Assembly (NCBI GenBank): GCA_040382995.1 | Contig: JBEIEK010000001.1 | Location: forward strand, 21,919 to 85,918 | Reading direction: 5' to 3' | Source: Planctomycetaceae bacterium | GTDB taxonomy: Bacteria; Planctomycetota; Planctomycetia; Planctomycetales; Planctomycetaceae | Length of the DNA stretch: 64,000 nt | Shown: positions 56,264-63,440 of the stretch, one piece after another | How the letters are laid out: every line of letters begins with the position of its first letter | How positions within the stretch are numbered: the stretch's first letter is position 1 | The notes under the pieces: generated by a model | What the model was told of the DNA's origin: nothing | The model's input: the letters and a program-made list of their open reading frames with translations, nothing else | The model's database searches: none | Made by a program: the position numbers and the translations under genes

Positions 56264-58033
56264 CTAAATGTTGATGCTCTGCGGAATGCTCGCAGGAAGC
56301 AGCGTTCTGTACGGACGCTTCCGCGCAGCGTTCCGGTTTGCAATCTGAACCCCGACATCCGCCAGTCGCCGCTGGAATTGCCGCAGCGGCTCCTGAACCC
56401 GCGGATCCACAAAATGACCGGTCGCATATTGTCCCAACTGCGTGTAGTGCACACTCCCCAGCAGATCGCAGACCTCAAGCTGCAACTCCGCCATGTCCAG
56501 CGTCGGCAGCATGGCCAGATAATCCGCTTCTGTCGCCCCCTGCGTTGACCTGGGGGCCGATCCATACAACGCCAGCGGCATCGCGGGGCACCACGTCATG
56601 TAGTCGGCCTGAGGAAAATTTACGGCAGCATGCTGCACACTGCAGGTGTAAAGCACAAAAGTGAGCGTCTCCACCACATCATCCACAACCTGAAACGCAC
56701 CGCCGTTCGGGAGTCCCTGCAGGCGACCACCGTCCTGAGCTGCCAGCTCGCGGCCCCACGCCTGCAACTCCGTGTCCTCAAGCACATCTGCCGCCCCTTC
56801 ATAATACAGCCTCACATACAACTCAACCCATTCCCGAATCGCGTCCCAGTACAGCCGCGAATCATCCCGATATGGGTAGTCAGGCAACGTTTCCCGATCA
56901 TCCACACCCCGCCTCCTGAACGTCAGTGGCAGTCTGTCATTCATCACATGCAGTGCCCGCAGGCCCTGCACGGCAAGATTTCGTGATGTGCCGATCGTCC
57001 CCGCCAGCAGTCGATCCACCGCGCCACCGTCCGACACCAGATGCTTCCATGCGGAATCGTTGATTGCCAGCGTCCCCTCGAAGTGCGGCTGCAGCAGAAT
57101 TCGCAGTGGGTGATCAGTCGCCAGCTGTCGAAAGGTGGCCATAATGAAGGCCTCCATGGCGAGGTGCGTGCGGGCTAGGTGAGTCGAGCCTTCGTGAAGA
57201 TTGCCGTCGGCTGATTCCACAATGGCCTTGGCAATCAGCCAGTTTTGGCCGTTCCGGGGCGTCAGCAGCGGATTGTCAACCGCAGGTATCTGCCTGCACT
57301 GAATGGCCACCGGTCGCAATTCCCGCCCCGGAACACTGCTCACAAACAACGCCAGCGGAGCGAACAGTCGCTTGCGCCCCCCTGGTCCAACGCCCGTTTC
57401 CGCACCGTCCAGAACCGCGTAATCCGCGAGGTAAAGGCGTCCCTCAGCGAGCGCCGCTGCAAATGAATCTCCAGGCACCACCTCCCTGAAGAGCTCTTCA
57501 GTCATCGGCAAACGCAGGTCCGGTTCACGCAGCCGCTGCAGCATTATCGGATTCGGGCCAGCTGTTCGCATCGACGCAAAGACCGCATCACTGCGATACT
57601 CCCGCGCAACAGGAGGCAGTCCATAAGCTCTGAATATGTTCTCAAACTCCTCCATCGACGCAGCCGATCGCTGCGGTGCCGTGCGACGCCCCTCAAATCG
57701 CAATGCCTCATGCACCCGCAGACGAATCTCACCGACCGCGTCAAGCCCCCGCCGCAGCAATCCGGTCAGGACACCATGCTGTCGATTGTGCTGCTCCAAC
57801 AACTCCTGATCCCCGTCCAGCTCGCACCGGTTGCGAATTCCGGCCAACACACGCTCGGTAACCAGTTCCAGCCAGCCGAAGGAGAATTCGTCGTGGATCG
57901 GCAGATGATCCAGCATGGCTGCCCCTGGGATGTGCGTGTAGTTGTATTCATACACCTTCCGCTGCAGCTTCAATTCCAGCGTTCTTGCTGCTCGACGCAA
58001 TGAGGACGCGTGCTGGGGAAGAAAAGCCGTCAT
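56264..58033 (-). CDS. lipoxygenase (no PLAT domain, no signal peptide)
   Basis: NWLIAKAIVESADGNLHEGSTHLARTHL contains the His-x4-His iron ligands. VQHAAVNFPQ supplies the His and Asn ligands. C-terminal ...IPQSINI ends in Ile. Confidence 0.85.
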   Translation of the reverse strand: MTAFLPQHASSLRRAARTLELKLQRKVYEYNYTHIPGAAMLDHLPIHDEFSFGWLELVTERVLAGIRNRCELDGDQELLEQHNRQHGVLTGLLRRGLDAVGEIRLRVHEALRFEGRRTAPQRSAASMEEFENIFRAYGLPPVAREYRSDAVFASMRTAGPNPIMLQRLREPDLRLPMTEELFREVVPGDSFAAALAEGRLYLADYAVLDGAETGVGPGGRKRLFAPLALFVSSVPGRELRPVAIQCRQIPAVDNPLLTPRNGQNWLIAKAIVESADGNLHEGSTHLARTHLAMEAFIMATFRQLATDHPLRILLQPHFEGTLAINDSAWKHLVSDGGAVDRLLAGTIGTSRNLAVQGLRALHVMNDRLPLTFRRRGVDDRETLPDYPYRDDSRLYWDAIREWVELYVRLYYEGAADVLEDTELQAWGRELAAQDGGRLQGLPNGGAFQVVDDVVETLTFVLYTCSVQHAAVNFPQADYMTWCPAMPLALYGSAPRSTQGATEADYLAMLPTLDMAELQLEVCDLLGSVHYTQLGQYATGHFVDPRVQEPLRQFQRRLADVGVQIANRNAARKRPYRTLLPASIPQSINI

Positions 58034-58056
58034 TGGTCCTGCCTTTTGTCAAGTGA

Positions 58057-62300: not shown

Positions 62301-63440
62301 AGATTCAAATTCGGCGCCAGCATCAAAGGAATACACACTGATCGTCACCCGCCGCAGCTCAGCAGCCCGCGCATGTCGGACCACCGCGTGGGCCGACTCG
62401 TCACTGCCCGAAGAGGAGCGAACTGGTGCGTGAATCTGTGCCTCAGCAGCGGATGCTTCCAGCAGTTGCTGAATCGCAGCGGAAAAGGCAGCCGCCGACC
62501 CGTAGCGATCGGCTGGATTCTTCGCCATCGCGCGACTGCAGACATTGTCGACCGCCGCCGGAAGGTCAGAACAGATGCTCGTCGGCGGATCGGCAGCACG
62601 CGTCACGATCTGCCCGAAAACAGCAGCTGTGGACCCCTGAAAGGGAAGACGCCCGGTGAGCATCCGATAAAGGATGACTCCCAGTGCGTAAATGTCAGTC
62701 GCCGGGCCAATCTGGTCGTTACGCCCCTCCACCTGCTCCGGCGACATGTAAGCCGGCGTGCCCAGAATGCCAGACTGAGTCAACTCCACTTCACCAGGAC
62801 GCGAACGACGGGCAAGGCCAAAATCAAGGATGATCGGGCGACCATCCGCGGTGAGCATGATATTCGAAGGCTTCAGGTCGCGGTGAATGATCCCAGCACG
62901 ATGCGCGTGATGCACGGCGTCCGCAACCATGCTGAGCAGCTTTGTGGCGACGACGAGTGAAAGACGGCCACTGACGCTCAACTGCTCGGAAAGCGTGCTG
63001 CCCTCCACATACGCCATCGTCAGAAAATGCCATCTCCCGTAACGGCCCACGTCGTAGATCGGACACAAATGCGGGTGCTGCACCGTGGCCATGGCACGGG
63101 CCTCCCGCTGAAAACGCTCAATCGCATCCCCGGTATTCTGTTCCGCAAAAAAGGGGATCTTGATCGCCACTCGACGATCCAGCTGCTGGTCGTGCGCCAG
63201 ATAGACTGCCCCCATCCCGCCACGCCCCAGCTGCCGCTCAATGCGATAACGACCAAACTGGTGCGGAATGTCCAGCTCGACACCACTGTCACCCGAAATC
63301 AATACCGCCTGGGTAGCAGAGAGTTCGATGGAAGAGCCGTCCGGGAGCGGACCTGTGACCGTGGGCCGACTGGCTTCACCTTCCTTCAGGCTGTCCGAAC
63401 CCTGACCAGTCATCGCGATACCCCACCAGCAGGCGAACAT
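59316..63440 (-). CDS. multidomain signalling protein: Ser/Thr kinase + class III cyclase-like domain + AAA/STAND-type NTPase + TPR array
   Basis: Kinase motifs GRGGMGAVY, VAIK, HRDLKPSNIML, DFG, SPE. Cyclase-like motifs IHFGEAVV and GDAVNLASRL. Walker A GDAGLGKS. Walker B LFIVEDLHWID. Long TPR-like C-terminus. Confidence 0.85.
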   Translation of the reverse strand: MFACWWGIAMTGQGSDSLKEGEASRPTVTGPLPDGSSIELSATQAVLISGDSGVELDIPHQFGRYRIERQLGRGGMGAVYLAHDQQLDRRVAIKIPFFAEQNTGDAIERFQREARAMATVQHPHLCPIYDVGRYGRWHFLTMAYVEGSTLSEQLSVSGRLSLVVATKLLSMVADAVHHAHRAGIIHRDLKPSNIMLTADGRPIILDFGLARRSRPGEVELTQSGILGTPAYMSPEQVEGRNDQIGPATDIYALGVILYRMLTGRLPFQGSTAAVFGQIVTRAADPPTSICSDLPAAVDNVCSRAMAKNPADRYGSAAAFSAAIQQLLEASAAEAQIHAPVRSSSGSDESAHAVVRHARAAELRRVTISVYSFDAGAEFESAGQRHTELLHACRRGFMALVNRHVQEHGGTLLSAVGEDVTVCFGYPRAWEDAPQRAVRAALAVRRDLEGSHGGDVRKALESGEYRPDTAQSLITIHFGEAVVEAAVTESGTTISISGDAVNLASRLSAVAVPGTITLTAPVHQRVGLYFECRSLGSQRLRGAVQPLELYEVLREAGSRNRVELVDPGNLTPLIGRDTELGVLRDRWEQSLEGLGQIVLLIGDAGLGKSRLIRELREHVRSGGEDHASVIELRCSQYHQNAAWFPLAEYLGRLLQLEHVSAAERLERVLQYLRPLGLDSAASVWLFCRVMGVPVDDRFPPLSLPPQRIKEQTEELLLTWLRRLVQRSPVLFIVEDLHWIDPSTLALVERHVELFECDRSLTVLTFRPEFETSWKSKPHQTAVALNRLTKRQIGQMMRKCTRRTEIPEAVIEQIVDRTDGIPLFIEEFSNSVVESGLLDQSEASRIVASLPRLIPATLNDLLLSRLDRMEANQEVIQLAATIGREFSYRLLAVACGLPDEQLRRELEKLVQAEILFQKGRGTESAFIFKHALLQDAAHGAMLSRRRQACHLRIAQVLEAEFPEITAAQPALLAQHFTEAGNIERAIEYWLRAGRHSAATCAVPEAIEQFDRGLHLVRLLPESSRRDELELSYQLPLGGVLVQAKGYGAAEPGLVFARARSICESLGRREELGLVLAGMWGWTLVRAEYAEALRLAENQVRLGEELGDPGLRGEACWAMTCTLFYLGRFAEAAEYAREGIRIHDAHPDCWRPFAAVAGQSAATCERAYLALSLYCLGRLDEALPHSRDAVALSREHRDPFSLAMALYHGAWLRLWAGLEDELRELSEEGLRLCREMSFYFYAVTQEFNVSAAALLNPAATAKDLEGFVGTIQAAVQAHLAAGSGVFLSKMYLLTAEALYRLERFNEASGPLQQGLAHAERTGERFCLAELQRLESLLHLRMGRREKAQRSLEAALATADSQGAVVWLERIREVQRLF

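What the first reader, a model, noticed from the sequence alone, without database searches (positions are those of the whole stretch)
56264..63440. Operon coupling a kinase-cyclase-NTPase-TPR protein to a catalase-related haemoprotein and a lipoxygenase
Three minus-strand genes are packed with essentially no spacing. The 1374-aa signalling protein stops at 59316-59318. The catalase-related gene starts at TTG 59319 (a 4-nt overlap) or at ATG 59286 (a 29-nt gap). It stops at 58057-58059, 23 nt before the lipoxygenase ATG at 58033. A catalase-related fatty-acid-hydroperoxide-converting enzyme paired with a lipoxygenase is the combination known from the coral Plexaura homomalla AOS-LOX fusion protein. 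It is also known from the catalase-related/mini-LOX fusion of Nostoc (Anabaena) PCC 7120. Here the two are separate genes, apparently co-transcribed behind a STAND-like kinase/cyclase regulator. That would link oxylipin synthesis to phosphorylation or nucleotide signalling in a planctomycete-like bacterium. I do not know this regulator-enzyme linkage as a described system. Spot G+C of 65% at 57001-57060 looks native rather than recently acquired.
Basis: partly seen in the sequence, partly recalled or inferred. Interest (0 to 1): 0.7.

Follow-up and report, generated by a model that had tools for sequence, protein, structure and literature searches.

The report
Bacterial oxylipin enzymes with NLR-like kinase
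Many unrelated bacteria keep the two enzymes that corals use to make lipid signals next to a sensor kinase built like an innate-immune receptor, which points to an undescribed bacterial system for making and sensing oxidised-fatty-acid signals; its function is untested.

Summary
The three genes and their spacings are as described; the middle gene starts at ATG 59286. It is a catalase-fold protein whose best solved match is coral allene oxide synthase (E 4e-73, TM 0.91) and keeps all five haem/catalytic residues. The lipoxygenase keeps its iron ligands. The 1374-aa protein has an intact kinase and STAND NTPase, but its cyclase domain is degenerate, so nucleotide signalling is not supported here.

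The linkage is conserved. Of 50 GTDB homologue loci with at least 3 kb of flank, 36 have a STAND gene, 39 a LOX and 28 both; trios occur in six phyla. In 401 genomes of the class, all 16 with this LOX carry the kinase (31 carry it; about 1 expected). Each part has been replaced by other lineages or folds (two LOX types, P450, di-haem protein, longer GAF-cyclase kinases) while the linkage persists.

Best model: a synthase-plus-receptor oxylipin module acting on imported polyunsaturated fatty acids (0.5). Rival: a danger-triggered lipid-oxidation defence. Co-transcription and activity are untested, and most homologues elsewhere lack the haem-ligand Tyr. Ten literature searches found no description of the linkage.

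The parts
59316..63440 (-). Ser/Thr kinase - pseudo-cyclase - STAND NTPase - TPR protein, 1374 aa (start ATG 63440 or 63410 not resolved)
   Evidence: Pfam Pkinase 65-318, AAA_16 571-752, weak Guanylate_cyc and TPR; TIGR03903 587 bits, under the 706 cut-off; AF2 model of residues 355-1374 pLDDT 88.7, best PDB match the STAND-TPR protein 6mfv, then Avs3 and Apaf-1; single copy in G000
62487..63248 (-). Kinase domain, catalytic residues intact
   Evidence: K94, D188, K190, N193, D206 kept in 34 of 34 aligned family members
61785..62357 (-). Class III cyclase-fold domain, degenerate (pseudo-cyclase)
   Evidence: Matches CyaB 3r5g at E 2.4e-7, with DKFVGD read as LSAVGE; neither metal-Asp site conserved in 34 rows, D at column 417 in 1 of 34
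61185..61730 (-). STAND NTPase core (Walker A GDAGLGKS 601-608, Walker B IVEDLH)
   Evidence: K607, S608, E733, D734, H736 kept in 34 of 34; Pfam AAA_16
59319..60485 (-). TPR-like helical sensor region, the most variable part of the protein
   Evidence: Mean identity to 33 relatives 31%, against 53% for the NTPase and 48% for the kinase; all-helical in the model; TPR clusters in the Atlas
59294..59298 (-). AGGAG ribosome-binding-like motif 7 nt before ATG 59286
   Evidence: Sequence
58057..59286 (-). Catalase-fold haemoprotein of the coral cAOS/cHPL type, 409 aa; T96, H97, N167, R382, Y386 correspond to cAOS T66, H67, N137, R349, Y353
   Evidence: phmmer 1u5u E 4.3e-73 over residues 33-395; AF2 pLDDT 91.2; Foldseek 1u5u TMt 0.91, rmsd 2.2, against TMq 0.55-0.60 for true catalases; the five residues invariant in 35 sequences
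56264..58033 (-). Lipoxygenase, 589 aa, no signal peptide; iron ligands H280, H285, H468, N472 and C-terminal I589; Ala328 at the Coffa site
   Evidence: Pfam Lipoxygenase E 7e-51; best PDB 8x8f and 5med; the His and Asn ligands invariant in 24 sequences; no hydrophobic N-terminus

Best explanation
A self-contained oxylipin signalling module: synthase plus dedicated transducer. The cytoplasmic LOX adds O2 to polyunsaturated fatty acids that the cell takes up from algae, cyanobacteria or prey. The catalase-fold haemoprotein turns the hydroperoxide into an allene oxide (then ketol or cyclopentenone) or cleaves it to an aldehyde and oxo-acid. The STAND kinase senses the lipid (hydroperoxide or product) through its TPR or pseudo-cyclase region, swaps ADP for ATP, oligomerises and activates its kinase domains, which phosphorylate cellular targets. 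SHOWN: protein identities, intact catalytic residues, degenerate cyclase, conserved linkage with repeated replacement of parts. FROM FAMILY KNOWLEDGE: LOX and cAOS chemistry, STAND switching. INFERRED: external substrate, the ligand, the direction lipid-to-kinase, and the output.
For: (1) Linkage: 36 of 50 GTDB loci with at least 3 kb of flank have a STAND gene, 28 have STAND and LOX, 3 have neither; trios in six phyla. Class survey of 401 genomes: 16 of 16 LOX genomes and 10 of 10 strong haemoprotein genomes carry the kinase, which is in 31. Genus survey of 54 genomes: the same 6 carry haemoprotein, full-length LOX and kinase, 5 of them on one contig. (2) The enzyme beside the kinase is interchangeable among unrelated folds: catalase fold, P450, di-haem cytochrome c peroxidase family. 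That fits a shared small molecule better than a protein interface. (3) The longer partner kinases end in GAF plus a cyclase (178 bits in L061) or a His kinase (L118), which are signalling outputs. (4) Flanking genes are varied housekeeping genes, not defence islands. (5) G000 has one desaturase, SCD1-like, and no pfaA over cut-off, so the substrate is probably external. (6) Precedent: the P. aeruginosa oxylipin synthase operon has its own LysR receptor (PMC6377657, abstract and section list).
Against: No expression, activity or ligand data. 15 of 31 kinase genomes in the class lack this LOX, and none of the 13 whose kinase loci I fetched had an oxygenase hit beside the kinase; 10 of those 13 form one subclade, so the kinase family has other uses. 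47 of 52 STAND-linked catalase-fold homologues have Ser-His, and only 5 keep the proximal Tyr, so the second enzyme step may not be general. The pair also occurs without a STAND gene: 0 of 11 cyanobacterial loci, Plesiocystis L040, Nostoc PCC 7120. The P450, FAD and di-haem neighbours are not shown to act on lipids. Five other module genomes carry 1-10 desaturases that I did not type, so an external substrate is argued for G000 only.
Confidence: 0.5

Rival explanations
1. Danger-gated oxylipin burst. The STAND protein is an NLR-like sensor of phage, predator or envelope damage. On activation it phosphorylates or releases the LOX and haemoprotein, giving lipid peroxidation, toxic aldehydes or an alarm signal. 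The Tyr-less catalase-fold proteins could be guarded decoys or adaptors.
For: Fold matches include Avs3 and Apaf-1. The distribution is patchy, 6 of 54 in the genus, at a synteny break. The TPR region is variable and mosaic: the NTPase is closest to L148/L076 (63-64%) and the TPR to L026/L037 (47-51%). In five planctomycetes the LOX is next to a C25 peptidase gene, followed in G070 by a CHAT-nSTAND1-WD40 gene. The F at the cAOS-150 position is the lyase-type residue (PMC5617202, passages).
Against: Few defence hits among 102 flanking ORFs from 43 loci; no PADLOC family had more than 2 members in the 25 of 83 families shown. PADLOC hits of the kinase cover only the generic kinase domain. G000 seems unable to make the PUFA substrate itself. 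One kinase would have to control enzymes of three unrelated folds.
Confidence: 0.22
2. Inducible detoxification or catabolism of algal PUFA and lipid hydroperoxides. The kinase senses the toxic lipid and only adjusts the pathway; the products are waste, not signals.
For: Substrate probably external. Extra neighbours are P450, FAD monooxygenase and GMC oxidoreductase. No Pfam catalase was found in G000.
Against: LOX makes a more reactive molecule from PUFA (family knowledge). No beta-oxidation or transport family recurs in the flanks. A 1400-1800-aa STAND kinase with cyclase or His-kinase output is unusual for a simple catabolic switch (inference).
Confidence: 0.2
3. No functional link. The genes travel together as an accessory cassette by descent.
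For: Genomes are not independent. The kinase family and the enzyme pair each occur alone.
Against: The linkage survives changes of order and strand, two LOX lineages, two haemoprotein clades and at least two STAND architectures, in six phyla. A random 17-kb window of G000 holds such a gene 0.3% of the time.
Confidence: 0.05

Closest known systems
Coral cAOS-8R-LOX (Plexaura homomalla, PDB 1u5u/3dy5) and Capnella imbricata cAOS-/cHPL-LOX
   Same: Catalase-fold domain with T66/H67/N137/R349/Y353 equivalents and a shared N-terminal segment, paired with a LOX.
   Different: Separate genes. The LOX is of the bacterial 8x8f/5med type with Ala at the Coffa site (S-type by the recalled rule) rather than coral 8R. 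K60 and K107 are replaced by T and S; position 150 is Phe as in cHPL; NL reads GI (PMC5617202 passages). Linked to a STAND kinase.
Nostoc (Anabaena) PCC 7120 catalase-like/9R-LOX fusion; Acaryochloris catalase-LOX fusion
   Same: Bacterial catalase-fold hydroperoxide enzyme coupled to a LOX (PMC11719350, passages).
   Different: 27% identity, fused, plasmid-borne, no kinase annotated within 8 kb. Acaryochloris was not compared by sequence.
Pseudomonas aeruginosa oxylipin-dependent quorum sensing (PA2076 OdsR + PA2077/PA2078)
   Same: The logic proposed here: oxylipin synthase genes with a dedicated receptor (PMC6377657, abstract and section list). Some kinase paralogues sit by a di-haem peroxidase-family gene, the broad family of PA2077/8 (PMC4496055, passages).
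   Different: No homologous parts in the window: the receptor is a LysR regulator, the enzymes are di-haem proteins, the substrate is oleate.
TOMM system kinase/cyclase fusion protein (TIGR03903); SWACOS-type STANDs
   Same: Kinase-cyclase-NTPase-TPR architecture over residues 89-1361. The name SWACOS and its meaning are recalled; the term appears in a figure legend of PMC13581612.
   Different: Score under cut-off; the adjacent genes are lipid oxygenases; cyclase degenerate.
Antiviral STANDs (Avs) and NLRs
   Same: STAND NTPase with a TPR sensor and an N-terminal enzyme domain.
   Different: No defence-island context; the neighbours are oxylipin enzymes; no nuclease or pore effector.

Membership tests
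Catalase-related fatty-acid-hydroperoxide haemoproteins (cAOS/cHPL) | Catalase fold closer to cAOS than to true catalases | tested here: met
   TMt 0.91 to 1u5u, E 5.8e-39; catalases E about 1e-14, TMq 0.55-0.60
Catalase-related fatty-acid-hydroperoxide haemoproteins (cAOS/cHPL) | Distal Thr-His and Asn; proximal Arg-x3-Tyr | tested here: met
   T96, H97, N167, R382, Y386. Not met by 47 of 52 STAND-linked homologues elsewhere
Catalase-related fatty-acid-hydroperoxide haemoproteins (cAOS/cHPL) | AOS versus lyase specificity residues (L150/F150; NL/YS 176-177) | tested here: inconclusive
   F180 is cHPL-like and G211-I212 matches neither; L150F alone did not change cAOS products (PMC5617202, passages)
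Catalase-related fatty-acid-hydroperoxide haemoproteins (cAOS/cHPL) | Haem binding and conversion of fatty-acid hydroperoxide | not testable with these tools
   Needs an assay
Coral-type AOS-LOX fusion proteins | One polypeptide | tested here: not met
   TAG 58059-58057 and a 23-nt gap; AOS and LOX are also separate in G433
Lipoxygenases | Iron ligands His, His, His, Asn and C-terminal Ile | tested here: met
   H280, H285, H468, N472, I589; Pfam 174 bits, cut-off 23.6
STAND NTPases | Walker A/B, STAND fold with helical domains and C-terminal repeats | tested here: met
   (best match 6mfv)
TOMM kinase/cyclase fusion (TIGR03903) | Score above the curated cut-off | tested here: not met
   586.7 against 705.75 bits
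Active class III nucleotide cyclases | Two metal-binding Asp, purine-specifying Lys/Glu, N-x3-R | tested here: not met
   N501 and R505 are present, but DKFVGD reads LSAVGE and the Asp sites are unconserved in 34 rows
Antiviral STAND (Avs) defence systems | Enrichment near defence genes | tested here: not met
   102 of 112 picked flanking ORFs scanned; scattered single hits only, 25 of 83 families shown; no genome-wide background computed
Antiviral STAND (Avs) defence systems | Phage protection and activation by a phage protein | not testable with these tools
   Needs infection assays
Oxylipin quorum sensing (ODS-like) | Receptor binds the oxylipin made by the adjacent synthase; positive feedback | not testable with these tools
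   Only genomic logic is available
Operon | One transcript across both junctions | tested here: inconclusive
   Gaps of 29 and 23 nt with no promoter or terminator match in them; no transcript data

The most novel reading that the evidence does not exclude
A widespread bacterial lipid-signal immune or danger pathway: an NLR-like STAND kinase coupled to LOX and allene-oxide chemistry, the prokaryotic counterpart of jasmonate and eicosanoid signalling. Tyr-less catalase-fold proteins act as lipid-hydroperoxide receptors or decoys, and the window's long-type haemoprotein clade is the bacterial sister of the animal AOS domain.
Probability: 0.22. Interest if true: 0.93.

Novelty: new variant of a known kind. 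Interest (0 to 1): 0.77.

Why it matters
What bacterial lipoxygenases and coral-type catalase-fold enzymes do in their own cells is largely open (my knowledge; PMC5155153 says so for prokaryotic oxylipins, seen as a search listing only). A dedicated, conserved STAND kinase partner gives a candidate receptor or trigger and makes the question directly testable. Cultured strains carry versions of it: Neolewinella marina, N. litorea, Gillisia sp. Q332, Gymnodinialimonas mytili. It would tie NLR-type switches to oxylipins in bacteria, offer a way for aquatic bacteria to sense algal lipids, supply new AOS or lyase biocatalysts, and bear on the origin of the animal AOS-LOX domain.

Tried and rejected
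Cyclic-nucleotide output by the window's protein: rejected on residues. TTG 59319 start and translational coupling: disfavoured. TOMM/bacteriocin role: under cut-off. Recent transfer on composition: no sign, but composition cannot exclude transfer among planctomycetes. Defence island: not seen. Phage carriage: 37 pattern matches in viral contigs, none a relative. Plasmids: 6 weak matches, all under 28% identity. First GTDB scan with the single protein: 31 stretches, none a relative; repeated with the alignment. RNA: no RNA holder listed; read laying not used. Complex of kinase residues 834-1374 with the haemoprotein: no answer, score 0.08 against a mark of 0.32; not used as evidence. No patatin or Pfam catalase was found in G000 (96% complete), although tblastn with a neighbour's patatin-domain protein hit contig C352.

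Caveats on counts. The E-value thresholds for 'strong' hits (1e-40 haemoprotein, 1e-100 LOX and kinase) were set after seeing the score gaps. At E up to 1e-3 there are 23 LOX genomes, and the 7 extra divergent ones have no kinase hit at 1e-20. Only 2-4 candidates per genome were scored in the class searches. The scans kept the best 80 of 157 (GTDB) and 80 of 94 (metagenome) relatives; 30 and 60 of these were dropped for under 3 kb of flank. With all 80 GTDB loci the counts are 51 STAND, 59 LOX, 39 both, 9 neither. An earlier tally with fewer LOX queries gave 33 LOX and 22 both of 50. L076 and L090 lie on one contig; several GTDB loci are the same genomes as G handles. L067's STAND has no kinase domain. 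Trees were quick mode, SH-aLRT only; domains were cropped by BLAST to the window protein; no AU test was run.

Literature. Ten searches listed no paper on this linkage, judged from titles and abstract starts. Passages seen: PMC5617202, PMC13581612 (no mention of lipoxygenase, catalase or cyclase), PMC11719350, PMC4496055, PMC11032199, PMC6612559. Abstract and section list: PMC6377657. The library lacks most subscription journals. Recalled and from no call: the meaning of SWACOS, the Coffa Ala/Gly rule, the label CspLOX1 for 5ek8, the roles of R349 and Y353, and the P450 I-helix motif.
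Full report
OBSERVATION. 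The middle gene most likely starts at ATG 59286: an AGGAG lies 7 nt upstream and its closest homologues are 409 aa from the same column. The gaps are therefore 29 and 23 nt. Neither holds a promoter- or terminator-like match or unusual structure. An operon is plausible but not shown. Gene GC (0.587-0.608) equals the genome mean of 0.600. Each gene is single-copy in the 6.36-Mb, 96%-complete assembly.

THE ENZYMES. The middle protein has no Pfam or NCBIfam hit but matches coral allene oxide synthase 1u5u at E 4e-73 over residues 33-395. Its model (pLDDT 91) superposes on 1u5u with TM 0.91, well ahead of true catalases. T96, H97, N167, R382 and Y386 correspond to cAOS T66, H67, N137, R349 and Y353 and are invariant in 35 close homologues. 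The product cannot be called. The cAOS L150 position is Phe, as in the coral lyase cHPL; NL176-177 reads GI; K60 and K107 are lost (one search read against passages of PMC5617202). The Nostoc PCC 7120 fusion is only 27% identical. The LOX keeps H280, H285, H468, N472 and the terminal Ile, is nearest to bacterial 8x8f and 5med and has no signal peptide. Ala328 suggests S stereochemistry (recalled rule). G000 has one desaturase, SCD1-like, and no pfaA over cut-off, so the polyunsaturated substrate probably comes from outside (inference).

THE REGULATOR. Kinase and NTPase catalytic residues are kept in 34 of 34 aligned family members. The cyclase-fold domain has no conserved metal-binding Asp and lacks the purine-specifying Lys. 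The TPR region is the most variable part (31% mean identity) and is mosaic relative to the NTPase. The model of residues 355-1374 matches the STAND-TPR structure 6mfv first, then Avs3, class III cyclases and Apaf-1. It scores 587 bits on TIGR03903, under the 706 cut-off.

CONSERVED LINKAGE. A GTDB scan with the haemoprotein alignment found 157 relatives and kept 80. Of the 50 with at least 3 kb of flank on both sides, 36 have a STAND gene, 39 a LOX, 28 both and 3 neither. In metagenomes the figures are 14, 14, 8 and 0 of 20. A 17-kb window of G000 would hold such a STAND gene 0.3% of the time; other genomes may have more copies. Trios occur in Planctomycetota, Myxococcota, Bacteroidota, Pseudomonadota, Actinomycetota and Spirochaetota.

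In 401 genomes of the class, 31 have the kinase, 16 this LOX and 10 a strong haemoprotein hit, strictly nested; about 1 LOX-kinase overlap is expected by chance, though kin are not independent. In all 16 LOX genomes a kinase gene sits next to a LOX, catalase-fold, P450 or di-haem peroxidase-family gene. None of the 13 fetched loci from the 15 kinase-only genomes had a hit to these queries. In the genus, the same 6 of 54 genomes have a haemoprotein-like gene and a full-length LOX, and all 6 are among the 11 with the kinase; 5 have all three on one contig. G401 and G431 read catalase-like, LOX, P450, then on the other strand FAD monooxygenase and kinase. G433 has the window's order for haemoprotein and LOX, with a contig break before them. 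Close relatives such as G141 have the flanking genes in other contexts and lack the module.

PARTS ARE SWAPPED, THE LINK STAYS. The LOX is either the window's type or a 720-760-aa type matching 5ek8. The STAND protein is either about 1400 aa (kinase, pseudo-cyclase, NTPase, TPR) or 1700-1800 aa (kinase, NTPase, GAF, then cyclase or His kinase). The haemoprotein comes from two clades. Order and strand vary. This makes co-inheritance without function unlikely, and shows that physical proximity rather than a fixed operon is what is kept.

RESULTS AGAINST A SIMPLE READING. Of 52 STAND-linked catalase-fold homologues, 47 have Ser-His and only 5 keep the proximal Tyr, though His and Asn are kept in 52 and Arg in 51. 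The window's protein is the minority, fully coral-like form. The majority form may use another ligand or be a lipid-binding pseudo-enzyme. The enzyme pair also occurs without a STAND gene in all 11 cyanobacterial loci (several with short flanks), Plesiocystis and Nostoc PCC 7120. One kinase subclade has no oxygenase neighbour.

MECHANISM. Most likely (0.5): the LOX and haemoprotein convert imported PUFA to an oxylipin, and the STAND kinase senses the hydroperoxide or product and relays it by phosphorylation. The direction rests on three inferences. Partner enzymes of unrelated folds share chemistry rather than a surface. The long kinases carry GAF and cyclase or His-kinase outputs. And P. aeruginosa pairs an oxylipin synthase operon with its own receptor (PMC6377657, abstract). 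Rivals: a danger-triggered oxidation burst gated by the STAND protein (0.22; patchy distribution and variable sensor for, lack of defence context against); inducible detoxification (0.2); no link (0.05).

COMPARISON AND NOVELTY. It works like the coral AOS-LOX pair chemically and perhaps like ODS quorum sensing logically. It is not an AOS-LOX fusion, not a TIGR03903 member by cut-off, and not shown to be an Avs system. In a quick tree the window's clade (SH-aLRT 99) groups with named animal AOS-LOX proteins of Branchiostoma and Tubulanus at support 90, an open fork with long branches; this is a lead only. Ten searches of open-access full text found no description of a STAND-kinase/LOX/haemoprotein system; subscription journals and supplements were not seen.

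VERDICT. A real, cross-phylum, apparently undescribed three-part module built from known parts; a new variant of the LOX plus catalase-fold haemoprotein pair, with a dedicated STAND kinase. Function is inferred, not shown. Interest 0.77.

Noticed in passing
L045-L116 short-type homologues, e.g. L061:7905-9062, L080:2751-3887: A large clade of catalase-fold proteins (56 rows, support 99) with distal Ser-His and, in the members read, no Tyr at the proximal haem-ligand position; a Tyr is usually present two residues before the Arg. Either an unknown haem ligand or a pseudo-enzyme.
   Followed up: partly
L251:13511-14899, L262:3405-4811, L263:2064-3497, L265:166-1665, L279:9833-11416: P450s beside the kinase or LOX read GGDVS or GGVFS in the I-helix in place of the usual acid-Thr pair (motif recalled), as hydroperoxide-isomerising P450s do.
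   Followed up: partly
L280:7499-8920, L263:11856-18659, L281, L282, L283: In five planctomycetes the LOX abuts a Peptidase C25 gene; in G070 a CHAT-nSTAND1-WD40 gene follows, and G282 has a similar 1730-aa ORF. A second STAND-type system tied to LOX.
   Followed up: partly
L032-L036: Distant catalase-fold homologues sit with RoxA-like di-haem proteins (5 of 5 loci) and 1700-aa patatin-domain proteins (3 of 5): another candidate lipid-oxidation cluster.
   Followed up: no
L274:4862-7849, L275:663-3641: Patatin-domain gene directly upstream of the LOX in G347 and G315, a candidate fatty-acid-releasing step.
   Followed up: no
L119:7488-11255; L077, L096, L098, L106, L108; L067: Catalase-fold/LOX fusions in metagenome and bacterial genome records, one with an N-terminal acyl-CoA-binding domain.
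   Followed up: no
L047, L052-L057, L059, L064, L070: Cyanobacteria with a 460-aa mini-LOX gene followed by a separate Thr-His/Tyr catalase-fold gene and no STAND neighbour in the DNA held.
   Followed up: no
L039 / G378:C2: The record title says Alcaligenaceae, but a contig of the same length with the same genes is placed in the window's class by the genome search; probably a mislabelled MAG.
   Followed up: no
window 54291-56075 and 63571-64000: Flanks are hemB-like and 3-keto-disaccharide hydrolase genes downstream and an ABC permease upstream. In G141 and G410 these lie apart, so the module sits at a synteny break; the haem-synthesis neighbour looks incidental.
   Followed up: yes
L103:1866-9116, L086:3508-7818, L312:6978-7915: Copies of the module with split ORFs (frameshifts or assembly errors).
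   Followed up: no
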